DNA from: Patescibacteria group bacterium
Lineage (GTDB): Bacteria; Patescibacteriota; Patescibacteriia; Magasanikbacterales; GWA2-37-8
NCBI GenBank assembly: GCA_004321885.1
Contig: SCQK01000007.1
Location: 128,001 to 192,000, forward strand
DNA length: 64,000 bases
Direction of reading: 5' to 3'
The first letter of the stretch is position 1, and every line of letters starts with the position of its first letter. This document shows positions 1-59,432 of the stretch, piece by piece. The position numbers were made by a program, and so were the translations under genes. The notes under the pieces were generated by a model. That model saw nothing but the letters and a program-made list of their open reading frames with translations. It searched no databases and was not told the DNA's origin.

Positions 1-2264
1 CGCGCTGGCCGGATGCCTTAAAGCTATTAAATCAGGAACTAAACCGGCTAGTTCGCGAGGTTAAGCGCGCCAAACCGATTATTGAACGGCTATTTAAGAA
101 GGAAGCTGATTTAACTGATGCTTATCGTGAATTTGACGCGGATGTCAACAAGATAAAACTAACCTTGGCAGAAGCAAATACCAAGATATCGGCCGGCGAT
201 TTAGAAGCCGCTTTTAGCATTATTGAAATTGATTTTTTTGATCAAATAGATAACGTGGAACAAAATTACCGCTCCATAATTATCATAAGCAATTTAGGCC
301 GCTTTGCTTCCTATCTTAAACAAAACATTACCACAAGCCAAAACGAAATTAAGTCGTTGAAGAAAAAAGGCATTGATGCGAGCGAACTTCAGGATTTGTT
401 AAGTCATATCAAGACCAACGGCAACGATGTTTTGGCATTGATAAAAGCCAAACCCATTGACGAGGATGCGATTCTTTCCGGAATTCAAGAGATGGACGAA
501 TTAAAACAGGATTTTTCCGACAAAGTAAGCGAAGTTACCGATGGAGAAGAGATGTCGTGGGGTAAAGATGGCAGTTTTTTTTCTAAAACAGAACTATCTT
601 CAAAGGCTGTAGAAGCAATAAGTTGGCTACAGAAACAAGTTAACTGGACCGCCTCTGTTCCTGTAACGAGCATGGATGTTCCATCAAGTGAAACAACATT
701 GACCGCGCCTCAGTCTGGTAATCAATCAACCTCAACACCTTCAAGCGCCACACCGGCAACACCAGCCACTCCAGCGGTCTCTTCTTCTGTCAGCGCCGCC
801 CCGGCTTCACCGGCGGTTCCAGCCACGCCCGCACAACCAGCATTAACCGCAGACACGACGGTTCCTTCCACGCCCACAAATCTAACCGCTAATTCTTCCA
901 GTTCTGTTCAAATTAATCTGGCTTGGACCGCTTCAACAGATAATGTTGGTGTGACTGGTTATCGCATCTATCGCGGAGGCGTCCAAATGGGCACTTCAAA
1001 TACCACTAATTATTCCGATACAGGACTTTCTTCGTTAACTACTTATTCTTATACTGTGGCGGCTTATGATGCGGCTGGTAATGTTTCTCCTCAATCAACT
1101 TCGGCAAGCGCCACAACACAGGCATTAGACACAACTCCGCCTGTCATCTCCTCGGTTTCAGTATCTCTTACCTCCGATTCTGCCACCATTACTTGGACAA
1201 CCAATGAATCTTCTGATTCACAAGCGAGTTATGGGTTGACATCCTCATATGGCAATACAACTCCATTGAACTCTTCTCCGGTTGTTTGGCATTCTGTTTC
1301 GCTTTCAAATTTAACTGGTGGCACAACTTTTCATTACAAAGTAATCTCCACAGATGGTTCAGGGAATAAAACCGAAAGCGGAGATGCAACTTTTACAACA
1401 ACATCTTCTGTCTTGCCAGCACCGAGTTTTCTTACGAAATGGGGTTCTCGGGGTTCTGATAATGGACAGTTTAATTCTCCTTTCGGTATCGCCGTAGATG
1501 CCAGTGGCAATGTTTATGTGGTGGACAGCCACAATCACCGTATTCAGAAATTCACCAGCAATGGCGTGTTTACCACCAAGTGGGGCTCTTCGGGTTCTGG
1601 CGACGGGCAGTTTTCTTACCCTTTCAGCATCGCCGTAAATGCCAGTGGTAATATTTATGTGACGGATGACAATAAGCATATTCAAAAATTTACCAACGAC
1701 GGCACCTTTATCCTCAAATGGGGCTCTTATGGTTCTGGTAATGAGCAGTTTTCTAGTCCTGAGGCTATCGCCGTAGATGCCGGTGGCAATGTTTATGTGG
1801 TGGACAGACCTAATAACCGCGTCCAAAAATTTACTGGGGATGGCACATTTATTACTAAGTGGGGCTCTTCGGGTTCTGGCGACGGGCAGTTTCAAGATCC
1901 TCGTGGTATCGCCATAGATGGTAGTGGCAATGTTTATGTGGTGGATTCCTCCAATAGCCGTGTCCAAAAATTTACTAGCGATGGCGCTTTTATCACTAAG
2001 TGGGGCTCTTCGGGTTCTGGCGATGGACAGTTTTTTACTCCTTTCAATATCGCCGTAGATGCCAGTGGCAATGTTTATGTGGCGGACGGCTACAATAATC
2101 GTGTTCAAAAATTTACCAGCAATGGCGTGTTTATCACCAAGTGGGGCTCTTCGGGTTCTGGCGATGGACAGTTTTCCCTTCCTCGTGGTATCGCCATAGA
2201 TGGTAGTGGCAATGCCTACGTGACGGAAGCCGACAACAGCCGCGTCCAAAAATTCGCTCCGTAA
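1..2264 (+). CDS. 5'-partial surface protein: Ser/Thr/Pro-rich linker, two fibronectin-III-like domains, six NHL (six-bladed beta-propeller) repeats
   Basis: The reading frame is open from the window edge; the track's 165 start is a TTG and there is no in-frame ATG. Six repeats of the form KWGSSGSGDGQF..P.GIAVD.SGNVYV.D..N.RVQKFT are typical NHL blades. Upstream are Fn3-like 'WTASTDNVGVTGYRIYR' and 'ITWTTNESSDSQASYG' segments and an STPA-rich linker. Confidence 0.75.
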   Translation, partial: RWPDALKLLNQELNRLVREVKRAKPIIERLFKKEADLTDAYREFDADVNKIKLTLAEANTKISAGDLEAAFSIIEIDFFDQIDNVEQNYRSIIIISNLGRFASYLKQNITTSQNEIKSLKKKGIDASELQDLLSHIKTNGNDVLALIKAKPIDEDAILSGIQEMDELKQDFSDKVSEVTDGEEMSWGKDGSFFSKTELSSKAVEAISWLQKQVNWTASVPVTSMDVPSSETTLTAPQSGNQSTSTPSSATPATPATPAVSSSVSAAPASPAVPATPAQPALTADTTVPSTPTNLTANSSSSVQINLAWTASTDNVGVTGYRIYRGGVQMGTSNTTNYSDTGLSSLTTYSYTVAAYDAAGNVSPQSTSASATTQALDTTPPVISSVSVSLTSDSATITWTTNESSDSQASYGLTSSYGNTTPLNSSPVVWHSVSLSNLTGGTTFHYKVISTDGSGNKTESGDATFTTTSSVLPAPSFLTKWGSRGSDNGQFNSPFGIAVDASGNVYVVDSHNHRIQKFTSNGVFTTKWGSSGSGDGQFSYPFSIAVNASGNIYVTDDNKHIQKFTNDGTFILKWGSYGSGNEQFSSPEAIAVDAGGNVYVVDRPNNRVQKFTGDGTFITKWGSSGSGDGQFQDPRGIAIDGSGNVYVVDSSNSRVQKFTSDGAFITKWGSSGSGDGQFFTPFNIAVDASGNVYVADGYNNRVQKFTSNGVFITKWGSSGSGDGQFSLPRGIAIDGSGNAYVTEADNSRVQKFAP
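1426..2264 (+). repeat. six tandem ~141-bp near-identical DNA repeats, each encoding one NHL blade
   Basis: 'aagtggggctcttcgggttctggcga(c/t)gg(g/a)cagttt' recurs with a period of 141 nt. Confidence 0.8.
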
Positions 2265-3286: not shown

Positions 3287-3404
3287 ATTCACCCTCCCAC
3301 CAAAATGGCTGGGTAGCTCAGTTGGTAAGAGCACGGGATTCATAACCCCGAGGTCGGCAGTTCGATTCTGCCCCCAGTCACGATTGTTTGGTGGGAGGGT
3401 GAAT
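3287..3404 (+). repeat. 18-bp perfect inverted repeats (ATTCACCCTCCCACCAAA / TTTGGTGGGAGGGTGAAT) bracketing the inner tRNA inside the anticodon loop of the outer tRNA
   Basis: 3287-3304 is the exact reverse complement of 3387-3404. Confidence 0.9.
3307..3380 (+). tRNA. complete tRNA(CAU), elongator Met or Ile2 type
   Basis: GGCTGGG-TA-GCTC-AGTTGGTAA-GAGC-A-CGGGA-TTCATAA-CCCCG-AGGTC-GGCAG-TTCGATT-CTGCC-CCCAGTC-A. The acceptor stem has one G-U pair. There is no 1-72 mismatch, so this is not an initiator. Confidence 0.8.
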
Positions 3405-3445: not shown

Positions 3446-4529
3446 GCTTCTGTTAGGCATAGAGTCATCTTGCGACGATACTTCAGTGGCCCTGGTCGCC
3501 TGCGGCGAACGGGGCTGTTTTGTGGTTGCCGAAAAAACCGCTTCGCAAACCGCGCTCCATAAAAAATACGGGGGCGTGGTGCCGGAAATAGCCGGGCGGG
3601 CGCACGCGGAAAAAATCGTGCCCCTGATTGAGGCGGTTCTGCGAGGAAAAAAGCCGGATGTTATCGCCGTAACCGCCGGACCCGGATTGATTACCGGTTT
3701 GCTGGTTGGCGTGGAAGCGGCGCGCGTTTTGTCATACGCGTGGAATGTGCCGCTATTGGCGGTAAATCATATTGAAGGGCACATCTATTCCGTGGAATTG
3801 GAAAACGAAAAAATCAAGTTCCCCGCTCTCGCGCTTATTGCCAGCGGTGGTCATACCGAGCTGATTTTTATGAAAAACCACGGCCAGCACAAACTGCTTG
3901 GCGCCACGCGCGACGACGCGGCCGGCGAATGTTTTGACAAGGTCGCCAAACTGCTCGGTCTCCCCTACCCGGGCGGTCCGGAAATTTCTCGGCTGGCGAT
4001 TGGCGGCGACCCGGGCGCCATAAAATTTCCGCGGCCGATGATAGAAAGCGATAATTACGACTTCAGTTTTGCCGGATTAAAAACCGCGGCGCTGTATTGG
4101 TTAAGGGATAATGTCATTGCGAGGCCTGAAAGGCCGAAGCAATCCCCCACAATCAAGCAAGGGATTGCTTCGCTTCGTTCCACTTCGCTCGCAATGACAA
4201 TGAATGATTTCTGCGCCAGTTTTGAGCAAGCGATAGTAGACGTCTTGGTCGCGAAAACTCTGAAAGCGGCCAGACAATACAAACCGAAAACCGTTATTCT
4301 TGCTGGCGGGGTTTCGGCGAACAAGAAACTTCGCTCTGCGCTTGAAAAGGCAATAAAAACTCTCGCTCCAATTACCAATTTCCAATTACCAATTTCCAAT
4401 TATTGTATGGACAACGCGGCCATGCTCGCCGTGGCCGGATATTATCGCGCGAAGAAAAAAAATTTCACTGATTGGAAAAAAATCCAAGCTGACCCGAATT
4501 GGACGATTTCTGGATTCCCCCGTACTTAG
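3446..4529 (+). CDS. tsaD: tRNA N6-adenosine threonylcarbamoyltransferase TsaD (Kae1/TsaD family)
   Basis: MLLLGIESSCDDTSVALV...AVNHIEGHIY...GGVSAN. The start is at 3446, not the track's 3180, which would run through the tRNAs. It carries two in-frame repeat insertions (4112-4199 and 4368-4402), and its last codons and stop lie inside repeat 4512-4543. Confidence 0.9.
4112..4199. repeat. family C long palindromic element (TGTCATTGCGAGGCCTGAAAGGCCGAAGCAATCCC...GGGATTGCTTCG...GCAATGACA) inserted in-frame in tsaD
   Basis: A near-identical copy lies at 27761-27838, and a half copy at 59138-59165. Confidence 0.85.
4368..4402. repeat. family B heptamer array (CCAATT[A/T])5, the complement of (GGAAATT)n, in-frame in tsaD; encodes ITNFQLPISNY
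   Basis: Direct heptamer tandem array; the same unit is present at 26432, 28424, 28866 and 59164. Confidence 0.85.
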
Positions 4530-4551: not shown

Positions 4552-7500
4552 TTAAATATTCACCCGCGGGCCCAGCACAGTGCCCCTGCCCAAAAGCGCT
4601 TCCAGTTCTTCCAGTAAATTTTCTTTGAGCTCCACCGAATACGAGGTCTTGATAATTTTATGACTAACGGACAAAAATACTTTTCTGTTCCCCGGATACT
4701 TTGCTAAAATCGCTTTGATGACGTTGGCTTTTTCTTTGAGCACACTTTTATCCACTGATATTTTCAAACCATCCAGCGCCTCTTCGCCAACGCGCGGCCG
4801 CACCTCGCTGGCAATCTCTTCCTCGGGCGCATAGCGGCGCACCGAGGGATAGGCGTGGTTTACTAATAGCTGTCCGGCCAAATCTTTGGCGTTTTCTTTG
4901 GTAAGCAAATAGGCCTTTTCCACGAACAGCTTGTCATCACCCTCTTCTTTGGAGGTCCGGCCCACCACGGCCACGGGCTTGCCTTCCTGCCACACCTCTT
5001 TGGTGCTTTCCAACGTGCGCGGGAAAACCAATAATTCCAGATTGCCGCTCGTGTCGCCGATGGTAACAAAAAGCATGGGCTGGCCCTGGCGCGTGATTTT
5101 TTTCTTCACACTTTCCACCATGCCGCCCACTGTTACCCAACTGTCGCGCGGCTGGCCGCCGAGCTCGCGAACCGGCGTCAGCGCCCTGGTCATCTCTTCG
5201 GCGAAATACGCGAACGGATGGGCGGTAACGTACAAACCGAGCAGTTCTTTTTCCCAGGATAATTTTTCTTCCTCGGTGGCTACCAGCGCCGGAGCCAGTG
5301 TTACTTTGGCGGCCAATTCAATGGCCGTGCCCATAAACAGCGAATTTTGGTTAGATACGCGCTTTTCCTGCGTTTGCTTGATGAAGCTCAATAAATTTTC
5401 AATGTTGGCCAAAAGTAATCCCCGGTCGTGGCCAAAGCAATCAAGCGCCCCGCATTTGAGCAAACTCTCCAATGATTTTTTGTTCAAATCCTTGTCTTGC
5501 ACGCGCGACAAAAAGTTTTCCAAATTTTCGTAGCGGCCGTTGTTCTTTCGTTCGCGATAAATCACCTCGGCGATATGCTCTCCCAAATTTTTGATGCCGT
5601 TGAGACCGAAACGGATATGGGCTTTTGTTTCGCCCTCAGACGCAATCATCGCGAAACTCTTAAAGCTCTCGTTTATATCCGGCGGCAAAACCTTGAGCCC
5701 CATGCGCTCGCACTCGGCGATGATTTCCGGCACCTTGTCTATGTCTCCGCTTTCGGCGATTAAAACTGCGGTCATGTACTGAATCGGAAAATTCGCTTTC
5801 ATGTAGGCGGTCTGGTACGCGACTATCGCGTAACTTGCGGCATGGCTTTTATTGAATCCGTAAGCCGCGAACGGCTCTATCAATTCCCACAAACGGTGAA
5901 TTTTTATCTCTTTGATTTTGCCGTGCTCCACACAGCCCTTAAAAAACTTATCCTTTTGCTTGGCCATTTCCGCCGGAATTTTTTTGCCCATGGCTTTTCT
6001 GAACTTATCGGCCTCTTCCCAATTATAGCCGGCTAAATTTATAGCTGTGAGCAAGACATCGTCCTGATAAACAATCAGGCCCAGCGATTGGTCCAAATAG
6101 TCCTTCATGCGCGGGTCAAGGTAATCTATCAGCTCGGGATGATTTTTGCGCCGGATATATTCGGGAATTGATTCCATTGGGCCCGGACGGAAAAGCGCCA
6201 CCATGGCCATGATGTCAAAAATTGATTCGGGCTTTAGCTCTTTCAAATAGCGCGTCATGCCCGAGCCGGAAAGCTGGAACACGCCCACGGTTTCCCCGCG
6301 CGCCAGCATTTCGTAAGTTTTCTTATCGTTCCAGGGATACAAATTTTCCAGGTTGATTTTTTGCCCGGTGGTTTTTTCCACGATTTCCACGGCATGCCCC
6401 AAAATGGAAAGATTGCGGATGCCCAAAAAGTCCATTTTAAGCAGGCCGGCCGCTTCCACAGAATGCATTTCATACTGAGTGGTCACGCGCTCGCCGCCGG
6501 TCTCTCTTTGCACCGGCGTAAAGTCGGTCAGCGGGGTCGGAGCGATGACTACGCCGGCCGCGTGGATGGAAGTATGCCGGCCGCACCCCTCTATTTTTTG
6601 CGCCAAATCCAACAGCCGTTTGGCCTCGGCATTTTTGTCATACAATTCTTTCAACGCCGGTTCCAGCTCTATGGCGCGCGCGATAGTCATGTGAAACCCC
6701 TGGGCGCCAAAGGGAATAAGCTTAGCCACCTGGTCGCAAAAAGAATAGGAGTAGCCCAGGGCCCGGCCCACGTCGCGCACAGCCCCGCGCGCGAGCATGG
6801 TGCCGAAGGTGATAATCTGCGCCACCTTGTCGGCCCCGTATTTTTGCGTGACATAGGCAATCATTTCGTCGCGGCGATCGTCGGCAAAATCCGCGTCAAT
6901 ATCGGGCGGGCTGGGACGGAATGGATTTAAGAAACGTTCAAAAGGCAGTTTGAAAAAAAGCGGATTGGCATTGACAATACCCATGGCATAGGACACGATG
7001 GAGCCGGCGGCCGAGCCCCTGGTGGTTTCAATTATCCCGTGCTCGTGCGCGTAATTCACATAATCGGCCACAGCCAAAAAATACGGCGAATAACCTTTTT
7101 TGCAAATCACATCTAACTCATATTCCACGCGCGTTTTTACTTCAGCCGTAATTTCTAAGAGCTTGGGCAGGCGCTCGTACACCTGTTCGCGCAAATACTG
7201 GTCGGCTGTTTTACCCTCCGGGATGACAATGGGCGGAAAATGCCATTTATTCAGCTGTAATTTCAGGTCCACCCGCTCAGCGATTTTGACGGTATTGGCC
7301 AGGGCCTCGGGCGCGTGGCGAAAGCGGCTCGCGATTTCTTCGGCCGGGCACAGCGACAAATCCATTCCCGCCATGGTGCGGCGGTTCGGTTCGTCCAGGG
7401 TTTTACCGTCGCGGATGCAGGTCACAATATCCTGGGCCTCGGCGTCCGCGGGGTTAAGGTAGTGCGCGTCGCGCGTTACGATAAGCCCTACGCCGGTGTC

Positions 7501-18022: not shown

Positions 18023-18146
18023 ACTCCACCCCACCTCGCCTCCCCCTTGGAGAGGAAACAACGATTACCCCTCCCCAACCCTCCCCTTATAAATGACGAT
18101 TACCCCTCTCTAACTCTCCCCTTATAAAGGGGAGAGAAACGACGAC
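18023..18146. repeat. three family A repeats and half-repeats (18023-18060, 18066-18100, 18101-18146); the last supplies the C-terminus and stop of the phosphomannomutase gene
   Basis: tacccctctctaactctccccttataaaggggagagaaacgacgac. Confidence 0.8.
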
Positions 18147-26231: not shown

Positions 26232-26326
26232 AAAATCCAACTTCAACATTTTTTTGTTCCAACTGCGGCGCCCAGTTCATGAAGTGGACCGGACGGCCCA
26301 CCCACTTGAACTCGCAATATTTATGA
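26228..26326 (+). pseudogene. duplicated 5' fragment of radA (zinc-ribbon N-terminus), 32-codon remnant
   Basis: MKNPTSTFFCSNCGAQFMKWTGRP parallels the radA N-terminus FICSNCDAQFTKWVGKC, with high nucleotide similarity to 26335-26395. Confidence 0.55.
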
Positions 26327-27759
26327 AAGATGGCTTTAAAACAATTTTTATCTGCTCAAATTGCGACGCGCAATTTACCAAGTGGGTGGGTAAATGTTTG
26401 GAATGCGGGAAGTGGGGAACAATTGAAAAATCCCAATTTCCAATTTCCAATTTCCAATCAAATTCCAAACTCCAAAATCCAAACACCCAAAATTATCCAC
26501 CAGTAACGACGAAAAGACTTTCAGAGATAGACAGCGCGGAAGCCAAAAGGATAAAAACAAACATTGATGAATTAGACAGAGTGCTTGGAGGGGGGCTCGT
26601 GCCGGGCTCCCTTGTTTTATTGGGCGGCGAGCCGGGCATCGGCAAATCCACTTTGGCAGCGCAATTGGCGGCCGCGATTCCCAACACCTTATATATTTCC
26701 GGCGAAGAATCCGCCGAACAGATTAAATTGCGCTTTGAGCGATTGGGGATTCCGGGTCAAGCCCGGAATGACAATAATGAGACCTTGCGCTTCGCGAACG
26801 CGACGAGCGTGGAGAGTGTGATAGCGGCCATGGATTCCCCCGTACTTAGTCGGGGGAATGACAGTAAAAACGAGACGGTCGGAATGACAAAACCACAACT
26901 CGTTATTGTTGACTCAATTCAGACAACGAGATCAGACGAAGTAGAGGGCGAGGCCGGAAGTATAAACCAAGTGCGGGCCTGCGCGGTTAAACTCATGGAA
27001 GCGGCAAAATCCACGGGCGTACCGATTGTTTTAATCGGCCAAGTGACCAAAGACGGCGCCGTGGCCGGCCCCAAAACCCTGGAACATCTGGTGGACACTG
27101 TGCTCTATCTGGAAGGCGACCGCTTTCACCAATTCAGAATCTTGCGCGCCGCCAAAAATCGCTTTGGCTCAACCGATGAAGTCGGAATTTTTTCCATGGA
27201 AGAAAACGGCCTGCGAGAAGTGAAAAATCCATCGGCCGCGTTTTTGTCCGGACGCGAAGAAAATGTGCCCGGCTCTTGCGTTACCTGCCTGATGGAAGGC
27301 ACCCGTCCCCTGCTGATTGAAGTGCAGGCGCTCGTAACAAAAACTAACTTCGGCTATCCCCAGCGCCGGGCCTCGGGCTTTGACCTAAACCGCTTGCAAG
27401 TGCTTATCGGCGTGCTGACCAAACGCGCCGGACTGCCGCTGGACACTTATGATGTATTTTTGAATGTCGTGGGCGGGATAAGCGCCGAGGAACCGGCCGT
27501 GGACTTGGCCGTGGTGCTCTCCATCGCTTCGGCCACGAAAAACAAACAACTGCCCAAGGGGCTGGCCGCTTTTGGCGAAGTGGGTTTGGGCGGCGAAGTG
27601 CGCGCCGTCAGCCAAGCCAAAAAACGTCTGGATGAAATCAAAAAAATGGGATTTGAATTCGCCGTGGTGCCGGCTTCTTCCGAAGAATACAAAGCGGGCG
27701 GCATCAAAATCGCGCCGGTAAAAAATGTGAAAGAATTAGTAGAAAGGATTGTCTTGTGA
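26323..27759 (+). CDS. radA: DNA repair protein RadA/Sms
   Basis: C4 zinc ribbon; RecA-like GGEPGIGKST Walker A; KNRFG motif; Lon-like C-terminus. It carries in-frame repeat insertions at 26432-26493, 26748-26773 and 26832-26863. Confidence 0.92.
   Translation: MKDGFKTIFICSNCDAQFTKWVGKCLECGKWGTIEKSQFPISNFQSNSKLQNPNTQNYPPVTTKRLSEIDSAEAKRIKTNIDELDRVLGGGLVPGSLVLLGGEPGIGKSTLAAQLAAAIPNTLYISGEESAEQIKLRFERLGIPGQARNDNNETLRFANATSVESVIAAMDSPVLSRGNDSKNETVGMTKPQLVIVDSIQTTRSDEVEGEAGSINQVRACAVKLMEAAKSTGVPIVLIGQVTKDGAVAGPKTLEHLVDTVLYLEGDRFHQFRILRAAKNRFGSTDEVGIFSMEENGLREVKNPSAAFLSGREENVPGSCVTCLMEGTRPLLIEVQALVTKTNFGYPQRRASGFDLNRLQVLIGVLTKRAGLPLDTYDVFLNVVGGISAEEPAVDLAVVLSIASATKNKQLPKGLAAFGEVGLGGEVRAVSQAKKRLDEIKKMGFEFAVVPASSEEYKAGGIKIAPVKNVKELVERIVL
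26432..26493. repeat. family B heptamer array (CCAATTT)n plus degenerate units, in-frame in radA (encodes FPISNFQSNSKLQNP...)
   Basis: cccaatttccaatttccaatttccaatcaaattccaaactccaaaatccaaacac. Confidence 0.85.
26748..26773. repeat. family C hairpin GGATTCCGGGTCAAGCCCGGAATGACA in-frame in radA
   Basis: Same subfamily as 34358-34383. Confidence 0.8.
26832..26863. repeat. family C hairpin GGATTCCCCCGTACTTAGTCGGGGGAATGACA in-frame in radA (encodes DSPVLSRGNDS)
   Basis: Identical to 4512-4543 and 33789-33819. Confidence 0.85.
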
Positions 27760-27838: not shown

Positions 27839-30013
27839 TTACTCCAAATGCACTGCATTCTCCCACTCTTTAATCTTCGCCGTTAAGGTCGGAAATTTCC
27901 CCAATCTCGGCGCCACTTGCCGCGCCGCCTCGCGCGCTTTTTTTATTATCTCTTTATCCGTCAGCTTGGCCAAACGCAAATTCATAAACCCGCTCTGGGC
28001 CGTGCCATAGACCTCGCCGGGCCCGCGCATTTCCAAATCCTTTTCCGCCAGCTTGAACCCGTCGTTATTTTTTTCAAAAAATCGCAGGCGCTCCAGGGCG
28101 CGCGGCGACTCCTGCTCCACGAACAAAAAACAATATGACTGATGAACCGAACGCCCCACCCGGCCGCGAAATTGGTGTAACTGGGCCAATCCAAACCTCT
28201 CGGCCCCCTCTATCATCATCACGCTGGTGTTTGGAATATCCACACCCACCTCCACCACAGACGTGGAAACCAAAATATCCAACTCGCGCTTCCTGAATTT
28301 TTCCATTGTCCCGTCTTTTTCTTTTGGTTTGAGGCGTCCATGCAAATATCCCACCCGCAAATCCGGAAATATATTTTTTGAAAGTTTTTCAAATTCTGAA
28401 AGCACCGATTTCTTGTCGTCTTTTGGAAATTGGAAATTGGAAATTGGAAATTCTTCGTTGTTTGCCCCAATTAAAGGGCAAACAACGAAGCACTGCCTGC
28501 CTTTTTTTACTTGTTCGCGGATAAAAGTGTACGCCTTGACGCGATTTACCGGCTCCACCAGCCGCGTCAAAATTTTCTTGCGGCCCGGCGGCAATTCGTT
28601 GATAATGGAAACATCCAGGTCGCCGTAAACCATGAGGGCCAGAGAGCGCGGTATCGGCGTGGCGGTCATGCTCAAAAAATGCGCGCCGCCTCCCTTTTCT
28701 TTTATCGTCTTTCTCTGCCCCACCCCGAAACGATGCTGTTCATCCACAATCACCAAACCCAATCTTTCAAACTCCACTCCTTCTGTCAGTAAAGCATGTG
28801 TGCCAATAATAATTTGAATATTATTACTCTTGATCTTTTCCAAAAAATCTTTTTTATTAAATTTTGAAAATTGGTCATTGGTCATTGATTGGAAATTGGA
28901 AATTGGAAATTGGGATTTTGAACCAGTCAATAAGCCCACTTTAACTTTATGCCCAAGAAGATTAACGATTGAATTATAATGTTGCACCGCAAGTATCTCG
29001 GTGGGCGCCATCAGCACGGCTTGGTAGCCATTCAAAGCCGCGTTGTACATGGCCATAGCCGCCACCACGGTCTTGCCCGAACCGACATCGCCCGACAGCA
29101 GGCGATTCATCGGCGTGGTTTTTTGCAAGTCCTGTAAAATTTCCCAGGCCGAAATTTTTTGCGTTTTGGTTAGTGTAAAAGGCAAACTCGCCACAAATTC
29201 CTTGATGGCGTTTTCGTTAAAAGCGAGGGACGGGGCTTTGGCGTCGGCTTTTTCCAGCCGCGACAGTTCGGCTTTAAGCTGAATCAAAAATAACTCATCA
29301 AATTTCAGACGCTCGGTGCTTTTGGCCAAATCAATTTCATCTTTGGGAAAGTGAATACCCTGCAAAGCCGATGATAAAGGCGCTAAATCATACTTGTCTA
29401 AAATTTCATCAGGCAGCCATTCTTGCATTGCGGCCGATAATACAATCACCTGGCTAACCAAAAAACGAATCTGTTTTTGGGTCAGCCCGGCCGTAAGCGG
29501 ATACATCGGCACCAGTCGCGCCGTGTGGGTCGTATACAAACCCTCCCCTTTCAGAGCCTGCCCTGAACTTGTTTCAGGGGGAGGGACAGAGGGTGGGGTA
29601 TTCACTCGCTCATACACCGGCCCAATCATCTGCGCCCCCAACATATCGGTCCGCGCCTTGCCCGACAAAAAAACCTCGTCCCCGGGCCTAAGCGTCTTGC
29701 CAATAAACGGCTGATTAAACCAGACCACGCGCAAACTACCGCTCGCGTCCGAAACCAGCGCTTCGGTGATGTTTTTTCTCTGACGCGGACTGCGCTTGTT
29801 GGCGATGAGCTCAACTTTGGCGCGCACTGTCACCGCCTCCCCGTGTTTCAGGTCGGCGATTTTTACCACGCTCCGAAAATCCTCGTAACGGAAAGGAAAA
29901 TAAAAAAGAAGGTCGGCCGCCGTGGCCACACCCAAACGCTCCAGCCGCTTGGCCGTGGTCTTGCCCACTCGGGAAAGTTGTGAGATTGGGGTGTTTAAGT
30001 TCATAATCAGCAT
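27839..30013 (-). CDS. recG: ATP-dependent DNA helicase RecG
   Basis: Wedge domain; DVGSGKT Walker A; DEQHRFG; helicase C motifs. It carries in-frame insertions of family B (28424-28454, 28866-28916) and a nested A/D repeat (29537-29607). Confidence 0.92.
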   Translation of the reverse strand: MLIMNLNTPISQLSRVGKTTAKRLERLGVATAADLLFYFPFRYEDFRSVVKIADLKHGEAVTVRAKVELIANKRSPRQRKNITEALVSDASGSLRVVWFNQPFIGKTLRPGDEVFLSGKARTDMLGAQMIGPVYERVNTPPSVPPPETSSGQALKGEGLYTTHTARLVPMYPLTAGLTQKQIRFLVSQVIVLSAAMQEWLPDEILDKYDLAPLSSALQGIHFPKDEIDLAKSTERLKFDELFLIQLKAELSRLEKADAKAPSLAFNENAIKEFVASLPFTLTKTQKISAWEILQDLQKTTPMNRLLSGDVGSGKTVVAAMAMYNAALNGYQAVLMAPTEILAVQHYNSIVNLLGHKVKVGLLTGSKSQFPISNFQSMTNDQFSKFNKKDFLEKIKSNNIQIIIGTHALLTEGVEFERLGLVIVDEQHRFGVGQRKTIKEKGGGAHFLSMTATPIPRSLALMVYGDLDVSIINELPPGRKKILTRLVEPVNRVKAYTFIREQVKKGRQCFVVCPLIGANNEEFPISNFQFPKDDKKSVLSEFEKLSKNIFPDLRVGYLHGRLKPKEKDGTMEKFRKRELDILVSTSVVEVGVDIPNTSVMMIEGAERFGLAQLHQFRGRVGRSVHQSYCFLFVEQESPRALERLRFFEKNNDGFKLAEKDLEMRGPGEVYGTAQSGFMNLRLAKLTDKEIIKKAREAARQVAPRLGKFPTLTAKIKEWENAVHLE
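28424..28454. repeat. family B (GGAAATT)4 array in-frame in recG (encodes EFPISNFQFP)
   Basis: ttggaaattggaaattggaaattggaaattc. Confidence 0.85.
28866..28916. repeat. family B heptamer array with TTGGTCA variants, in-frame in recG (encodes SQFPISNFQSMTNDQFS)
   Basis: gaaaattggtcattggtcattgattggaaattggaaattggaaattggga. Confidence 0.85.
29537..29607. repeat. family A hairpin carrying a nested family D hairpin (29553-29580) in its loop, all in-frame within recG
   Basis: caaaccctcccctttcaGAGCCTGCCCTGAACTTGTTTCAGGgggagggacagagggtggggtattc. Confidence 0.75.
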
Positions 30014-54680: not shown

Positions 54681-57600
54681 ATGCAAGCAAAAATTGAACT
54701 GCCCAAGGCGCCAATCGGCGCTATCACTCCCGCGCCCATCGTGGACGAGATGCGCAAATCATATCTGGAATACGCCATGAGCGTGATTGTTTCCCGCGCC
54801 CTGCCTGACGTGCGCGACGGCCTCAAACCGGTGCACCGCCGCATTTTGTACGCTATGTGGAACATGGGCCTGCGCCACAACGCCAAGTTCCGCAAATCGG
54901 CGCACGTGGTCGGCGAGGTGATGGCGAAATACCATCCGCATGGCGACTCGGCAATCTATGATTCCATGGTGCGCATGGCGCAGGATTTTTCCATGGGCCA
55001 CACGCTGGTGCACGGCCAAGGAAACTTTGGCTGTTTCACAAAAGATACCAAAGTCAAATTAACTGATGGCCGTGGTTTGAATTTTGAAGATTTAATCAAA
55101 GAATACGAATCGGGAAAGAAAAATTTTACTTACTCCATAAACAATTCCGGTCTAATTTCCATTGCCGAAATAAAACATCCCAGATTAACCAAAAAATCCG
55201 CTGAAATAATGAAGGTGGTATTGGATAACGGCGAAGAAATCAGATGTACCTTGAATCACCTGTTCATGTTAAGAAATGGAAGCTACAAGGAAGCAAAAGA
55301 TTTACAAGCCGGTGAATCGCTGATGCCCTTGTATCAAAAAATTTCCGAAAAAACCGACAAGTTAAACCGCGAAGGATACATCTTAATCCACCAAAACAAA
55401 ACCGGCGAATGGGTGCCGGCCCACCACTTGGCGGATAATTTTAATCTGAATGAAAAAAAATATGCTATAACGCGCGGCAGAGTTCGTCACCATGTTGATT
55501 ATAATAAATTAAATAATAACCCGGACAATATCATTCGCATGCGCTGGGGCGAACACTGGAAAATTCACTACTCGCACGCGAAAGAAATGCATCAAAATAA
55601 TGAGTACGTAAAAAAACTTGCCGATGGCAGAAAAAAATTCTGGGCCGATAATAAAAATAGGAAAAAATACGCGGAAAGAATTTCTGTCCGCAATATTAAG
55701 AATTGGAAAAATTCGGAATACCGCGAAAAAACGCGTCAATTCCTTAGCGAAACAAACAAGGAGTATTTAAAGAACCATCCGGAAAAAATAGCTGAAATTA
55801 AAAAGACGGCTTCGGCCACTTTTAAAAAATTATGGTCAATACCTTATTATAAAAACTTATTCCACGATAAGATCGTCGCCGCGAACAAAAAAAGAATATC
55901 CAACAATACTGGCAAGAAAAAATTCTTGACTATCTGCAAAGAGGCGTTAAATCGCTTTAAGACAATTAATGAACAATCATACGAGCATGCCCGAAAAAAA
56001 GTTTACCCATATGGACGCGCTACGATGTGGCAGACCGGCTTCAAAAAATACTTTGCTGAAAATTTGGATACACTGACGCAAGAAGCGGTAAAAAACCACA
56101 AGGTGACCAAAATTGAATTTTTGAATGAAAAAGAAGATGTGTTTGATATTACGATTGATAAGTGGCACAATTTCGCTTTGGCCTCCGGAATTTTTGTACA
56201 TAACTCAATGGACGGAGACAACGCCGCCGCCTACCGCTACACCGAAGCCAAATTGGAATCATTGGCCGAAGAAATACTCGCCGACATTGACAAGGAAACG
56301 GTAAACTTCGTCCCCAACTACGATGGCTCGCACAACGAACCGACCGTCCTGCCGGCCAAGGTCCCCAACCTCTTGCTGAACGGCACAGTAGGTATTGCCG
56401 TGGGCATGGCCACTTCCATTCCCCCGCACAATCTGGGCGAACTCTGCGACGGCCTGATAAAACTGATTGACGACCCGGAAACCACGGTGGAAGAACTCTC
56501 GGAAATAATCAAGGGGCCGGACTTCCCCACCGGCGGCATCATTTACAATAAAAAAGATATTTTGGCCGCCTATTCCACGGGTCGCGGCGGCATTGTCATA
56601 CGCGCCAAAGCGGAAATACAGGAAAGCAAATCAGGCCAGTTCCAAATCATAGTGAGCGAAGTGCCTTACCAAATAAACAAAGCGGCGCTGATAGAAAAAA
56701 TCGCCGAGCTGGTGCAGGAAAAAAAGATAGACGGCATCAAGGACCTGCGCGATGAAACCAACAAAGACGGCGTGCGCATCGTTATTGAACTAAAAAAAGA
56801 TTCATATCCGAAAAAAGTTTTAAACCGCCTGTTCCAGCTCACCGAACTGCAGACCACTTTCCACACGAACATGCTCGCTCTGGTGGACGGCATCCAGCCG
56901 CGCGTTTTGAATCTCAAAAACGTCTTGGAAGAATTCATCAAACACCGCCAGGAAATAATCCGCCGGCGCACCGAGTTTGACTTAAACAAGGCCAAGGAGC
57001 GCGCCCATATTTTGGAAGGCCTGAAAATGGCGCTGGACAAAATTGACGCCGTGATAAAAACCATCCGCGCTTCCAAAGACAAGGACGAGGCTAAAAAGAA
57101 CTTGATGTCCAAATTCAAATTCACCGACCGGCAGGCCGTGGCCATTTTGGAAATGAAACTGCAGCAGCTGGCCAATTTGGAAAGACAAAAAATTGAGGAT
57201 GAATTGAAAGAGAAAAAACTGCTGATAAAAGAGCTGGAATCAATACTGGCTTCCAAAACTAAAATTCTGCAAATAATCAAAAAAGACACGGCCGAGTTGA
57301 AGGCCAAATACGGCCGCGAACGCGGAACGCAAATAGTAAGCCACGGCGTGAAGGAATTCACCGTGGAGGACTTGGTGCCGAACGAACCCACGATTATAAT
57401 GATTACCACCGACGGCTATATCAAGCGCCTGCCGCCGGACACCTTCCGTCAGCAATCGCGCGGCGGTAAAGGCGTAATCGGCGTTACCACCAAAGAAGAA
57501 GACAGTGTGGAACACTTACAGGCAACCAACACGCACGACAATATCTTGTTCTTCACCAACCGCGGACGCGTATTCCAGTTGATGGCCTATGATATACCGC

Positions 57601-58319
57601 AAGCCAGCCGCACGGCCAAGGGGCAGGCTCTAGTTAATTTTCTGCAACTGGCGCCCAATGAAAAAGTGACGGCCTTGCTGGGCATGAGCGAGCTGGAAAA
57701 AATTAAATTCCTGGTCATGGTGACGCGCCAAGGGCTGATTAAAAAAACCGCGCTGGAAGATTTTGCTAATGTGCGCAAGAGCGGTCTTATCGCCATCAAA
57801 CTGAAACCGAACGACAATCTGGAATGGGTCAAGCCATCCACCGGCGCGGATGAAATATCCATCGTCACTAAAAAGGGTCAGGCTATCCGATTTAAGGAAA
57901 AAGACGTGCGGCCAATGGGGCGCGGGGCCAGCGGCGTGCGCGGCGTGCGCTTGCACACGGACGACGAAGTGATTTGTATGGATATCGTTGACCCGAAAAA
58001 CGTCTCGCTGGAGTTGTTTATTGTGGGCGAAAACGGTCTGGGCAAACGCACTCCCCTGGCGCAATACAAAGTGCAAGGACGCGGGGGCAGTGGCATCAAG
58101 ACCGCGGCCATCACGGATAAAACCGGATTCCTTATCCACGCCAAGGTCATAGACAAAGTGGAATCGGCCGAGCACGATTTGATACTGATGTCGGCCAAGG
58201 GCCAGGTTATCCGCTTGCCATACAAATCTGTTTCGGTCTCGGGTCGCGCCACCCAGGGCGTGCGCCTGATGCGCTTCAAAGAGGGCGGCGACAAAGTGGG
58301 AAGCGTGACGTTGTTGTAA
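54681..58319 (+). CDS. gyrA: DNA gyrase subunit A interrupted by an in-frame intein (aa 118-508)
   Basis: N-extein ...HGQGNFG, then the intein, then C-extein [17 protein letters not shown] (catalytic Tyr region), GyrA box and a C-terminal beta-pinwheel. Confidence 0.93.
55032..56204 (+). mobile_element. GyrA intein (391 aa) with an HNH-type homing-endonuclease domain
   Basis: Begins with Cys (CFTKDTKV), ends ...GIFVHN, followed by a +1 Ser. An internal HNH motif [28 protein letters not shown] is present. Exactly 1173 nt, in-frame. Confidence 0.85.
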
Positions 58320-58366: not shown

Positions 58367-58437
58367 GCCCTCGGCGCGAATCGAACGCGCATCACCAGCT
58401 TCGGAGGCTAGTGTCCTATCCATTGAACGACGAGGAC
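58367..58437 (-). tRNA. tRNA-Arg (anticodon CCG)
   Basis: Reverse complement GTCCTCG-TC-GTTC-AATGGATAG-GACA-CTAGC-CTCCGAA-GCTGG-TGAT-GCGCG-TTCGATT-CGCGC-CGAGGGC-A. Confidence 0.85.
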
Positions 58438-59432
58438 TAAAATATCCGGCGCAATTTTCTTAACCAGCCGTATACCTTACACTTTTTTTTATTAATAATC
58501 AAGTCAAAAGTGCCCGGGGCTTCTTTGTAGGCGCCGCCAAAACCGAGTTTGAAACGAGTGACACCGGCGTATTGGTGGCGCGGTTCACCTTGCGGCGCGA
58601 TACCGAAAAAATCATAAAACTTGTAGCCCAGCTTTTTTCCCAACTTAATTCCTTCCCATTGCAATAGATACGGGGCCATCAAATGGCGGCACGCGTAATC
58701 GGACGCGCCGTACAGATAAGTAAAGGTGCCACCAAACCCGACAAACACCGCCGAAGCTACGGGCGCGTTTTCGTGATAAGCCGTGAGCTGATAGACAAAA
58801 TCTGAACTGATGACTTTTTTGTAATGCTCCTCCGGGTGGGTCTTGAAATTATCCCGCTTGGCCGTCTCTTTTTCCAATTTGATAAAAACATCCGCGTTCT
58901 TTTCGTTGGCGATTCGCAAATTTTTTCGCGCCGCCAAATTTATATTGTAGCGCGTTTTTTGACCCATGCCGGCAAGCAGTTCATCCTCGGACTTGATTAA
59001 GTCCAAAATCAACGTGGCGCGAGGGGTGATGTCTATTGTCTTGTTCGCCCCCTCCGGAACCTGTTCCGGTTCAACGCGGAAAAACACGCACTTTTTGGAT
59101 TTCAGATAATCAATCAAAGTCTTATATGTTTCGTCAAGGGATTCTTCGCTTCGCTCAGAATGACAATTGGAAATTGGAAATGCTTCACTTCGTTCAGAAA
59201 AAGGGAAATTGGAAATTCCAACAGGTCCTTTGGGGCAAAAGGCGTATTTCCAGCCAAACGGCAAATCAACGTACACAATCTGGGCCCAAGCCAAAACAGC
59301 GCCGTTTTCCTCTATTTCCAAACGCTCAACTTTTTTGCCCTCGGCAATCAAAATATCACCCCATTCCCATGATTGGGAAAAAGGCAGATTTTGAGGCCAA
59401 TTCGCGCTATTTTCCACGACTCTCATCTGCAT
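58437..59432 (-). CDS. FemAB-family peptidoglycan interpeptide-bridge aminoacyltransferase
   Basis: FemAB-like fold signature ...YKFYDFFGI...FKLGFGG at the C-terminus. It contains in-frame family B/C insertions (59138-59220). Confidence 0.7.
   Translation of the reverse strand: MQMRVVENSANWPQNLPFSQSWEWGDILIAEGKKVERLEIEENGAVLAWAQIVYVDLPFGWKYAFCPKGPVGISNFPFSERSEAFPISNCHSERSEESLDETYKTLIDYLKSKKCVFFRVEPEQVPEGANKTIDITPRATLILDLIKSEDELLAGMGQKTRYNINLAARKNLRIANEKNADVFIKLEKETAKRDNFKTHPEEHYKKVISSDFVYQLTAYHENAPVASAVFVGFGGTFTYLYGASDYACRHLMAPYLLQWEGIKLGKKLGYKFYDFFGIAPQGEPRHQYAGVTRFKLGFGGAYKEAPGTFDLIINKKKCKVYGWLRKLRRIF
59138..59220. repeat. composite insertion in the femAB-like gene: a family C half element (59138-59165) plus family B heptamer arrays (59164-59220); encodes ...NFPFSERSEAFPISNCHSERSEE
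   Basis: gggattcttcgcttcgctcagaatgacaattggaaattggaaatg...gggaaattggaaattcc. Confidence 0.8.

What the first reader, a model, noticed from the sequence alone, without database searches (positions are those of the whole stretch)
4368..4402. In-frame (GGAAATT)n heptamer arrays inserted into at least four conserved genes, encoding an FPISNFQ peptide
The same 7-nt unit is tandemly repeated in tsaD (4368-4402), radA (26432-26493), recG twice (28424-28454 and 28866-28916) and the femAB-like gene (59164-59220). In every case it lies inside a conserved housekeeping ORF without breaking the frame, and it always yields FPISNFQ-like inserts. A 7-nt period is not a multiple of 3, so only arrays that restore the frame can survive; this implies repeated insertion and selection. 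The arrays could be hotspots for slippage, and perhaps for phase or length variation in essential proteins.
Basis: seen in the sequence. Interest (0 to 1): 0.75.

Follow-up and report, generated by a model that had tools for sequence, protein, structure and literature searches.

The report
In-frame heptamer microsatellites in housekeeping genes
A 7-base DNA stutter (AATTTCC, four to five copies) sits in frame inside several core genes of an uncultivated ultra-small (Patescibacteria) bacterium. Related species carry the same kind of stutter at the same spots, so this is a known type of simple repeat in an unusual place, where it keeps rewriting small pieces of conserved proteins.

Summary
The arrays are real, far above chance, and all in frame. 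They are best read as heptanucleotide microsatellites, not repeated insertions of one element. The window comes from a Magasanikbacteria-like Patescibacteria genome.

- **recG:** both arrays are inserts relative to canonical RecG and fall in low-confidence loops.
- **radA:** the array lies in a linker that is exactly 21 nt (3 units) longer than in four relatives.
- **femAB:** the arrays add 17 aa relative to the closest homolog.
- **tsaD (the focal coordinates):** this is not an insert. The array overwrites a native, confidently modelled segment with no length change.

Species only 60-70% identical carry heptamer arrays at the same codon positions, but with different, internally uniform units (AATTTCC, AATTTTC, AATTTCG, AAATTTC, CCAATTA, CCAAGTA, GAAACCC). 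That is the signature of in-place turnover.

Period 7 is specifically over-represented in these genomes. Among arrays found in other genomes, 98 of 123 lie in long ORFs and one clearly breaks a frame.

The shared orientation (45:8 in Patescibacteria) fits stop-codon avoidance, because the G-containing strand is about 7 times more prone to nonsense mutations. There is no direct evidence for phase variation.

Unexplained features are the roughly 30-nt modal length, the fixed 5' phase, and a degenerate 3' tail.

The parts
4368..4402 (+). tsaD array: (CCAATTA/CCAATTT)x5, 14-nt period x2.6, encoding PITNFQLPISNY. It replaces the native FPxTNFQIPxLKY segment with no change in length.
3447..4529 (+). 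tsaD host gene. The true start is at 3447; the longer ORF from 3180 runs over a tRNA-Met gene at 3307-3381.
26433..26458 (+). radA array, perfect part: (CCAATTT)3.7, encoding QFPISNFQ.
26459..26493 (+). radA array, degenerate 3' tail of about five decayed units (AAATTCC, AAACTCC, AAAATCC, AAACACC), encoding SNSKLQNPNTQ.
26323..27759 (+). radA host gene. The array lies in the linker between the zinc ribbon and the ATPase domain. That linker is 7 aa (21 nt, 3 units) longer than in four relatives.
28423..28452 (-). recG site 2 array: sense strand (AATTTCC)4.3, encoding EFPISNFQFP. It sits in an 11-aa insert relative to canonical RecG.
28888..28913 (-). recG site 1 array: sense strand (CAATTTC)3.7, encoding QFPISNFQ. 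It sits in a 16-aa insert relative to canonical RecG.
28870..28887 (-). recG site 1, second block: sense strand (CAATGAC)2.6, encoding SMTNDQ. It stops exactly where one more unit would create an in-frame TGA. Its complement is the rotation TTGGTCA.
27839..30013 (-). recG host gene.
59165..59181 (-). femAB array a: 2.4 units, encoding FPISN.
59204..59217 (-). femAB array b: 2 units, encoding ISNF. Together with array a and two copies of a GAGCGAAGCGAAG-type repeat arm, it looks by eye like an imperfect duplication of about 37 nt.
58437..59432 (-). femAB-family host gene. The segment after CPKGP is 45 aa here, 28 aa in the closest homolog (70% identity), and 17-28 aa in most others.

Best explanation
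These are heptanucleotide microsatellites embedded in coding sequence. They are simple-sequence repeats with a 7-nt unit, of the kind known mainly from intergenic DNA of cyanobacteria, Xanthomonas and Beggiatoaceae.

Shown:
- In this Patescibacteria lineage a process specific to period 7 makes and renews short tandem arrays.
- The arrays sit at fixed, orthologous positions in housekeeping genes.
- Each lineage's array is internally uniform, but the unit differs between lineages by one or a few bases.
- Lengths differ between species at several sites. In the one clean case, the radA linker, the difference is exactly 21 nt.

Inferred:
- The arrays arise and turn over by slipped-strand mispairing or out-of-register repair. 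They are seeded where native codons already resemble two units, for example tsaD AAT TTC CAA ATT CC, which encodes N-F-Q-I-P.
- Translation then filters the outcome. Only net changes divisible by 3 survive. Only units free of stop codons in all three frames can exceed about 20 nt. Only positions that tolerate a short peptide rich in F, P, I, S, N and Q keep an array.
- The uniform orientation follows from that filter. With C rather than G on the sense strand, a mutated or homogenised unit rarely creates a stop.

The arrays are probably near-neutral passengers that remodel loops, linkers and, in tsaD, a structured segment. They are probably not regulatory switches.
For: - **Period-7 specificity.** In 0.84 Mb around arrays from other genomes there are 189 exact arrays of at least 3 copies with period 7. 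That compares with 1, 3, 8 and 1 for periods 5, 6, 8 and 9. Sixty-three of the 189 have other units.
- **Same result without selecting on arrays.** In the RecG loci closest to the window's gene, chosen by homology alone, period-7 runs of at least 12 matches number 12, against at most 1 for any other period from 4 to 12.
- **Orthologous arrays with different uniform units.** recG site 1 carries AATTTCC (window, L121), CAATTTT (L257), GAATTTC (L258), CAAATTT (L259) and GAAACCC (L123). Site 2 carries AATTTCC (window, L122, L123), CCAATTA (L258) and CAATCTT (L259). The tsaD site carries CCAATTW x5 in the window and CCAAGTA x5 in L260.
- **Loci evolve independently.** Units differ between loci within one genome (L258, L259, L123), which argues against a master copy.
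- **Length change.** radA is +21 nt. The femAB site has length classes at 21 aa and at 26-28 aa.
- **Compound and decayed arrays lie next to perfect ones**.
- **Frame filter.** 98 of 123 arrays lie in ORFs of at least 150 aa and one gene (gatA, L051) is broken at the array.
- **Stop filter.** On the AATTTCC strand, 1 of 21 unit variants and 1.2% of point mutations create a stop. On the GGAAATT strand the figures are 6 of 21 and 8.3%. AT-rich heptamers are stop-free in 75% of cases with two C, 44% with one G, and 21% with two G.
- **Orientation matches the filter.** Patescibacteria show 45:8 in favour of the C-rich sense strand (p=2e-7). Other units in ORFs total 54 C against 16 G on the sense strand. 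The (CAATGAC) block ends just before a TGA would appear.
- **Placement.** recG arrays lie in regions with pLDDT below 50, between ordered elements. Canonical RecG lacks both inserts.
- **Literature.** Over-representation of heptanucleotide repeats in prokaryotes, and the polymerase-slippage hypothesis, are credited to a 2007 survey as cited in PMC4692102 and PMC4679880.
Against: - **Turnover mechanism is unclear.** Simple slippage changes length by 7 nt, which shifts the frame. How arrays become uniform inside essential genes such as tsaD without a length change is not explained. It needs 21-nt steps, paired gain and loss, or conversion-like events, none of which was observed.
- **Length is not what simple slippage predicts.** Lengths peak at about 27-33 nt (mode 31) rather than declining from the 21-nt detection limit, and this also holds in intergenic DNA.
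- **Boundaries are polar.** 55% of arrays start exactly with AATTTCC against 14% expected. Repeat-like debris is stronger on the 3' side, with a score of 7.9 against 5.7 (p=4e-4).
- **One core is unusually conserved.** The 27-nt core at recG site 2 is identical in three species whose flanking third codon positions are only 24-46% identical.
- **Unit-specific enrichment across genomes could not be tested.** In viral contigs the unit is no more common than composition-matched controls: 11 hits against 4, 23 and 14.
Confidence: 0.7

Rival explanations
1. The arrays are discrete cassettes of about 30 nt, made of heptamers, that are copied into genes as units. Possible routes are ectopic gene conversion or template switching from other arrays, or an unknown polar, strand-specific enzymatic process. 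On this view they do not grow in place.
For: - The same unit occurs at five or six loci within 64 kb and in many phyla.
- Length is unimodal at about 30 nt in both genic and intergenic DNA.
- 55% of arrays start in the same phase.
- A degenerate tail on the 3' side follows the repeat strand rather than gene orientation.
- The tsaD segment is overwritten with no length change.
- The recG site 2 core is identical across three species with saturated flanks.
Against: - No conserved flanks, inverted ends or target duplications were seen.
- Different loci in one genome carry different units (L258, L259, L123).
- Orthologous sites carry single-base unit variants, as expected for in-place evolution.
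- Compound blocks of variant units lie next to each other.
- About 40 different units occur in the same genomes.
- The unit is not enriched in viral contigs, which would be a plausible vehicle.
Confidence: 0.15
2. The arrays are selected functional elements. They could be a contingency switch that turns repair and other genes off and on by +/-7-nt frameshifts. They could be a DNA or RNA motif bound by a protein. Or the FPISNFQ peptide could be a functional module.
For: - The unit length is not a multiple of 3 and lies inside ORFs, which is the architecture of phase-variable loci.
- radA and recG are non-essential repair genes.
- One gene (gatA, L051) is frame-shifted exactly at an array.
- Orientation is strongly biased.
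- Some intergenic arrays form inverted pairs.
- The tsaD array encodes a confidently modelled segment.
Against: - The hosts include genes expected to be essential (tsaD, LeuRS, gatA), not surface or restriction genes.
- Arrays are short, at 4-5 units.
- The count is 98 in-frame arrays to 1 frame-broken one, and that one may be a sequencing error.
- Neither the unit nor the peptide is conserved at orthologous sites: FPISNFQ, FSIFNFQ, FRISNFE, FQISNFK, ETRNPKP, PSTKYQV.
- Canonical orthologs work without the recG inserts.
- Stop-codon avoidance alone accounts for the orientation bias.
- No Rfam family matches.
Confidence: 0.1
3. The arrays are assembly or sequencing artefacts.
For: All sources are metagenome-assembled genomes.
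Against: - The same arrays occur at the same codons in independent assemblies from different projects.
- Reading frames are preserved.
- Decayed copies are present in related species.
- Orientation is biased with respect to genes.
Confidence: 0.01

Closest known systems
Heptanucleotide long simple-sequence repeats of prokaryotes (a 2007 survey, as cited in PMC4692102 and PMC4679880)
   Same: Tandem 7-nt units. Period 7 is specifically over-represented among repeat periods. Polymerase slippage is the proposed cause.
   Different: According to PMC4679880, that survey found repeats whose unit is a multiple of 3 to be the ones most likely to lie in coding regions. Here the arrays are almost all inside ORFs, in frame, at orthologous positions in housekeeping genes, and in Patescibacteria.
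Cyanobacterial short tandemly repeated repetitive (STRR) heptamers (Calothrix PCC 7601, cited in PMC4692102) and GGGGA(T/C)T / GGGAATC repeats of Nostoc and Xanthomonas
   Same: A few favoured heptamer units are repeated at many loci, and arrays vary between close relatives. From my own recall, one window block, (ATTGGTC)2.6, is a rotation of the STRR unit TTGGTCA.
   Different: The Nostoc and Xanthomonas repeats are described as strongly over-represented in intergenic regions (PMC4692102), and those are G-rich and prone to form quadruplexes. The unit here is AT-rich, has no G on the sense strand, and is translated.
TAACTGA direct repeats of Beggiatoaceae, cyanobacteria and some Bacteroidetes (PMC4679880)
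   Same: One favoured heptamer scattered across phyla, with no known way of spreading. Stop codons restrict which orientation can enter genes. One unrelated locus found here (L165) carries that unit as TCAGTTA.
   Different: TAACTGA has stops in the forward orientation and lies mostly upstream of start codons. AATTTCC is stop-free on both strands and lies inside genes.
Rickettsia palindromic elements (in-frame selfish DNA in protein-coding genes; from my own knowledge, not checked in the paper library)
   Same: Repetitive DNA that is tolerated in frame inside conserved housekeeping proteins.
   Different: Those elements are 100-150 bp palindromic mobile elements. The arrays here are 15-35 nt tandem repeats with no self-complementarity or defined ends. 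The window does also contain separate GC-rich repeat-derived in-frame inserts, listed under things noticed in passing; one of them (tsaD) is palindromic.
Phase-variable contingency loci (for example the heptanucleotide repeats at HMW1A of Haemophilus influenzae, PMC8262952)
   Same: A simple repeat whose unit is not a multiple of 3, so gaining or losing one unit shifts the frame or alters expression.
   Different: From my own knowledge, contingency loci have long tracts in surface, adhesin or restriction genes, with documented strain-to-strain switching. Here the tracts are short, the genes are housekeeping, nearly all arrays are in frame, and no switching is documented.

Membership tests
Prokaryotic heptanucleotide simple-sequence repeats (STRR-type arrays) | Head-to-tail copies of a 7-nt unit, at least about 3 copies | tested here: met
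   TRF and exact-run scans give 3.7-5 copies at four of the six array positions. The two femAB arrays have only 2-2.4 copies.
Prokaryotic heptanucleotide simple-sequence repeats (STRR-type arrays) | Excess specific to period 7 over neighbouring periods | tested here: met
   Exact arrays of at least 3 copies number 189 for period 7, against 1, 3, 8 and 1 for periods 5, 6, 8 and 9. In RecG loci chosen without regard to arrays, the count is 12 against at most 1. In the window it is 3 against at most 1.
Prokaryotic heptanucleotide simple-sequence repeats (STRR-type arrays) | A favoured unit recurring at many loci in a genome | tested here: met
   There are 12 dimer matches at six positions in 64 kb against 0.2 expected. 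Several other genomes gave multiple hits.
Prokaryotic heptanucleotide simple-sequence repeats (STRR-type arrays) | Copy number or unit varies between related genomes | tested here: met
   Between species, units and lengths differ at orthologous sites. Variation between strains could not be tested because no genome within 90% identity was found.
Prokaryotic heptanucleotide simple-sequence repeats (STRR-type arrays) | Mainly intergenic location, as reported for the Nostoc, Xanthomonas and Beggiatoa repeats | tested here: not met
   All six window arrays lie in ORFs, as do 98 of 123 arrays in other genomes (ORF of at least 150 aa). This is the respect in which the finding is a variant of the known kind.
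Phase-variable contingency locus | Repeat tract in an ORF or promoter with a unit not divisible by 3 | tested here: met
   A 7-nt unit inside ORFs.
Phase-variable contingency locus | On and off variants differing by whole units within a population or between strains | not testable with these tools
   No reads and no close strains are available. Among consensus assemblies, only 1 of 123 arrays breaks a gene (gatA, L051), and that case could be a sequencing error.
Phase-variable contingency locus | Host genes are surface, antigen or restriction-modification genes | tested here: not met
   The hosts are tsaD, radA, recG, femAB, LeuRS and gatA. By eye from the flanking sequence, they also include a tRNA 2-thiouridylase (MnmA)-like gene.
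In-frame mobile palindromic elements or MITEs (Rickettsia RPE-like) | Palindromic or terminal inverted-repeat structure | tested here: not met
   One strand of the array contains no G, so it cannot pair with itself.
In-frame mobile palindromic elements or MITEs (Rickettsia RPE-like) | Conserved ends and target-site duplication | tested here: not met
   The flanks of 126 arrays share no sequence.
In-frame mobile palindromic elements or MITEs (Rickettsia RPE-like) | In-frame presence inside conserved housekeeping genes | tested here: met

The most novel reading that the evidence does not exclude
The arrays may not be passive slippage products. They could be renewed by a directed, strand-polar, length-limited process of about 30 nt. 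Candidates are conversion-type copying or a dedicated enzymatic activity. Such a process would overwrite coding segments with no net length change, even in essential genes. It would give Patescibacteria a built-in way to rewrite protein loops, or to switch repair genes transiently.
Probability: 0.15. Interest if true: 0.8.

Novelty: new variant of a known kind. Interest (0 to 1): 0.55.

Why it matters
Heptamer repeats are a long-noted but unexplained oddity of bacterial genomes, studied mostly in intergenic DNA. Here they are translated, they sit at the same codons of core genes across species, and they turn over while the frame is kept.

This gives a natural system for asking three questions. 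Why 7 nt? How does a repeat with a non-triplet unit become uniform inside an essential gene? How much of the loop and linker diversity of Patescibacteria proteins is written by repeat dynamics rather than by point mutation?

It also has a practical side. These segments will mislead alignments, domain boundaries and selection tests in genomes of this group.

Tried and rejected
- **Source contig.** An exact-protein look-up for the window's RecG found nothing on record. No relative closer than 68% exists, so repeat-number polymorphism between strains could not be checked.
- **Literature.** No paper in the library contains the repeat or the peptide strings.
- **Unit-specific enrichment.** In viral contigs the target is no more common than controls. 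I therefore do not claim that this particular unit is special across genomes.
- **In-register polarity test.** It showed nothing. A register-free alignment score did show a 3' tail.
- **Candidate frame-broken arrays.** Of three, one is an array that begins at a stop codon (L024) and one looks like a wrong-strand ORF (L073). Only L051 gatA stands.
- **Peptide-level conservation.** Rejected, because orthologous sites encode different peptides.
- **Mobile-element reading.** Rejected as the main explanation, because there are no conserved ends and units differ between loci of one genome.
- **RNA family.** Only tRNAs reach Rfam thresholds in the window.
- **Metagenome scan.** The RecG-based scan returned mostly distant RecG genes (57-37% identity). 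These served as the no-insert baseline rather than as close relatives.
Full report
**Observation**

- tsaD, 4368-4402: five units alternating CCAATTA and CCAATTT, a perfect 14-nt period.
- radA, 26433-26458: (CCAATTT)3.7, followed by about five decayed units to 26493.
- recG, 28423-28452: 4.3 units.
- recG, 28888-28913: 3.7 units, abutting (ATTGGTC)2.6 at 28870-28887.
- femAB, 59165-59181 and 59204-59217: 2.4 and 2 units, separated by a fragment of another repeat.

The dimer with at most one mismatch occurs 12 times against 0.2 expected. Each array lies in an ORF with family matches on both sides. In all six cases the sense strand reads AATTTCC. Because 7 and 3 share no factor, any frame gives the same cyclic peptide. 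The constant FPISNFQ therefore reflects the shared orientation and not a shared frame.

**Source and hosts**

The window comes from a Patescibacteria genome close to Magasanikbacteria. The RecG protein is on record from a 214,539-bp NCBI contig, and the next homolog is only 68% identical. No strain-level comparison is possible.

The window encodes ordinary core genes: dnaE, pheST, clpB-like, radA, recG, der, pth, dprA, topA, relA/spoT, parAB, rpsA, gyrA, rnc and seven tRNAs. The true tsaD start is at 3447, because the upstream ORF extension covers a tRNA-Met gene.

**Is each array an insertion?**

*recG: yes.* Eighty RecG loci recovered by homology show the canonical lengths. Site 1 is 15 aa of the form LxGSxxxxEKxxxxx, and site 2 is 10 aa of the form LIEESEKLxx. 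The window has +16 and +11 aa at these sites. Both positions are gaps against the solved Thermotoga and E. coli structures. In an AlphaFold model with mean pLDDT 77, both arrays fall in stretches with no assigned secondary structure, between ordered elements. pLDDT is below 50 for 374-384, just after the site 1 array, and for 516-534, which contains the site 2 array.

*radA: partly.* The array lies in the linker between the zinc ribbon and the ATPase domain. That linker is 58 aa in the window and 51 aa in four relatives. The difference is exactly 21 nt, or three units.

*femAB: yes.* The segment after CPKGP is 45 aa in the window and 28 aa in the closest homolog (70% identity). Across 120 homologs the lengths cluster at 21 aa and at 26-28 aa.

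*tsaD, the focal coordinates: no.* In 113 of the 119 closest homologs the segment has the same length. Five are one to four residues shorter and one carries an extra insert. The consensus is FPETNFQIPELKYCMDN, against APITNFQLPISNYCMDN in the window. A TsaD model with mean pLDDT 88 places the segment at pLDDT 82-88, with a short strand. In tsaD the array has overwritten native sequence.

**What the relatives show**

I fetched DNA for seven other species with RecG 61-68% identical to the window's. At the same two sites they carry heptamer arrays, but often with a different unit that is uniform within each array.

| Locus | recG site 1 | recG site 2 |
|---|---|---|
| window | CAATTTC x3.7, then CAATGAC x2.6 | AATTTCC x4.3 |
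| L121 | AATTTCC x4.7 | a 37-nt tandem repeat instead |
| L122 | 9-nt repeats instead | AATTTCC x4.5 |
| L123 | GAAACCC x3.7, then decayed AATTTCC-like units | AATTTCC x4.5 |
| L256 | decayed units | no clear array |
| L257 | CAATTTT x3 | other repeat-derived insert |
| L258 | GAATTTC x3.7 | CCAATTA x3.6 |
| L259 | CAAATTT x4 | CAATCTT x3.5 |

The tsaD site behaves the same way. L260 has a perfect (CCAAGTA)5 at exactly the place and length of the window's array. A homolog of consensus type (L262) has no periodicity, but it does contain AAT TTC CAA ATT CC, which is two near-identical units and a plausible seed. The radA linker carries AAAATCC units in L121 and AAGAATG units in L123.

The peptides differ accordingly: FPISNFQ, FSIFNFQ, FRISNFE, FQISNFK, ETRNPKP, IPITNYQ and PSTKYQV. 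Selection is therefore not holding a particular peptide. Units also differ between loci within one genome (L258, L259, L123). Arrays thus evolve locus by locus and are not copied from a master. This is the pattern expected for old, orthologous microsatellites that are continually made uniform in place.

**Generality**

About 60% are Patescibacteria of many classes. The rest are MAGs labelled Nitrospirae, Acidobacteriota, Bacteroidota, Proteobacteria and others, and some low-GC contigs among them may be mis-binned.

Of 123 arrays, 98 lie in ORFs of at least 150 aa. In the 0.84 Mb around them, exact arrays of at least 3 copies number 189 for period 7, of which 63 have about 40 other units. Periods 5, 6, 8 and 9 give 1, 3, 8 and 1. 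The same excess appears in the RecG loci closest to the window's gene, which were chosen without regard to arrays (12 against at most 1). Many of those RecG genes carry heptamer arrays of yet other units.

Same-site recurrences also occur in LeuRS, at two sites in four lineages each. By eye, the flanks suggest the same for a glycosyltransferase and a tRNA 2-thiouridylase (MnmA)-like gene.

In viral contigs the target unit is no more common than composition-matched controls (11 hits against 4, 23 and 14). What stands out is therefore the density of heptamer arrays in these genomes. I estimate about 80 per Mb in the flanks, far above the viral contigs. It is not shown that this particular unit is favoured everywhere.

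**Orientation**

In Patescibacteria, 45 arrays have AATTTCC on the sense strand and 8 have GGAAATT (p=2e-7). Other phyla show 21:13. Other units inside ORFs are also poor in G on the sense strand, with 16 G against 54 C.

Both orientations of AATTTCC are free of stop codons, but they differ in how fragile they are:

| Sense strand | Unit variants that create a stop | Point mutations that create a stop |
|---|---|---|
| AATTTCC | 1 of 21 | 1.2% |
| GGAAATT | 6 of 21 | 8.3% |

The tsaD variant AATTACC contains a stop when reversed. Among AT-rich heptamers, 75% are stop-free with two C, 44% with one G, and 21% with two G. Stop-codon avoidance during mutation and homogenisation is enough to explain the bias. 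The (CAATGAC) block in recG ends exactly where another unit would give TGA.

**Frame**

Only one array clearly breaks a gene. In L051, gatA continues in another frame exactly at (AATTTCC)4.3. This could be a real off-variant, a pseudogene, or a sequencing error. Together with the 21-nt length difference in radA, this shows strong selection for keeping the frame. There is no positive evidence for phase variation.

**Mechanism**

The best-supported account is slippage or misaligned repair that favours 7-nt units, as proposed for prokaryotes in general. It would be seeded where native codons already approximate two units, and then filtered by translation for frame, stop codons and tolerated peptides.

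Shown:
- period-7 specificity
- orthology of the arrays
- differences in unit and in length between species
- preservation of the reading frame
- the asymmetry in stop-codon risk between the two strands

Inferred:
- the molecular slippage step
- the role of native seed sequences
- selection as the cause of the orientation bias

**What remains unexplained**

- Array length peaks at 27-33 nt (mode 31) instead of declining from the 21-nt detection limit, in both genic and intergenic DNA.
- 55% of arrays start exactly with AATTTCC.
- Repeat-like debris is stronger on the 3' side of the C-rich strand, regardless of gene orientation.
- The recG site 2 core is identical in three species whose flanks are saturated at third codon positions.
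- tsaD arrays are uniform without any length change, which single 7-nt slips cannot achieve in an essential gene.

These points keep a conversion-like or polar renewal process alive as a minority reading.

**Comparison with known systems**

The arrays meet the defining features of heptanucleotide simple-sequence repeats of the STRR type, except for location: they are in genes, not between them. They fail the tests for palindromic mobile elements and MITEs, because they have no self-complementarity and no conserved ends. They also fail the gene-class test for contingency loci.

No paper in the searchable library contains the repeat or the peptide. I rate the finding as a new variant of a known kind.

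Noticed in passing
window 54681-58319 (+): The gyrA ORF is 1212 aa and contains an intein splicing domain at about residues 134-508, inside the topoisomerase IV/gyrase A domain.
   Followed up: no
window 4121-4200 (tsaD), radA residues ~175-185 and ~200-222 of ORF 26254-27759, femAB 59130-59165, recG residues 140-159: A second class of in-frame inserts derives from GC-rich repeats.
- tsaD: ARPERPKQSP...GIASLRSTSLAMT, whose DNA is an inverted repeat (GGCCGAAGCAATCCCC...GGGATTGCTTCGCTTCG). It has pLDDT below 50 in the TsaD model.
- radA: GQARNDNNETL and SPVLSRGNDSKNETVGMT, both absent from S. pneumoniae RadA.
- femAB: CHSERSEESL.
- recG: PPSVPPPETSSGQALKGEGL, also pLDDT below 50.

Relatives carry similar peptides at the same recG sites as the heptamer arrays.
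   Followed up: partly
L121 9500-9640 (recG site 2 of a relative): A unit of about 37 nt containing a palindrome (CCTGCCTTGCCGGCAGGCAGG) is repeated three times in tandem. Each copy is therefore read in a different frame (YPTCLAGRQVSN / IQPALPAGRYQISN / LPCRQAGIKYP) and the overall frame is kept. This is another repeat with a non-triplet unit surviving as a triple.
   Followed up: no
L051 ~5994-6023 (Candidatus Tagabacteria MAG): gatA is split into two reading frames exactly at an (AATTTCC)4.3 array. This could be a real frame-shifted allele, a pseudogene, or a sequencing error.
   Followed up: partly
L038, L040, L049, L058, L066, L084, L086, L088, L116 (mostly non-Patescibacteria MAGs): Intergenic (AATTTCC)n arrays that are often preceded by an inverted copy (GAAATTGGAAATT...). 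Most are followed by a short hairpin of the type AGCCGTGAACGGCT or AGCGTTCCGTGAACGCT. They look like a distinct structured intergenic element that uses the same heptamer.
   Followed up: no
L001-L120, all arrays: Array length peaks at about 30 nt. 55% of arrays begin exactly with AATTTCC. Degenerate repeat-like sequence is stronger on the 3' side of the C-rich strand, whatever the gene orientation.
   Followed up: partly
L015, L052, L095, L102 and L068, L080, L094, L119: LeuRS of distant Patescibacteria lineages (Saccharibacteria, Falkowbacteria, Parcubacteria) carries perfect AATTTCC arrays at two fixed sites. At one site, KFPISNFQFPIEV lies directly before the conserved VFTTRPDT motif. From my recall of canonical LeuRS, it takes the place of a native beta-hairpin; this was not checked.
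   Followed up: partly
window 18061-18128: A 35-nt tandem repeat x1.9 (ACGATTACCCCTCCCCAACCCTCCCCTTATAAATG) lies between the DUF559 gene and the phosphoglucomutase-family gene. It is followed by a complementary GGGGAGAG stretch.
   Followed up: no
window 1437-2254: 141/282-nt tandem repeats lie inside a 699-aa protein with NHL repeats and a fibronectin type III domain. These are ordinary protein-domain repeats.
   Followed up: no
L165 4853-4884: An unrelated high-GC locus carries (TCAGTTA)n, the reverse complement of the TAACTGA repeat described in Beggiatoaceae and cyanobacteria.
   Followed up: no
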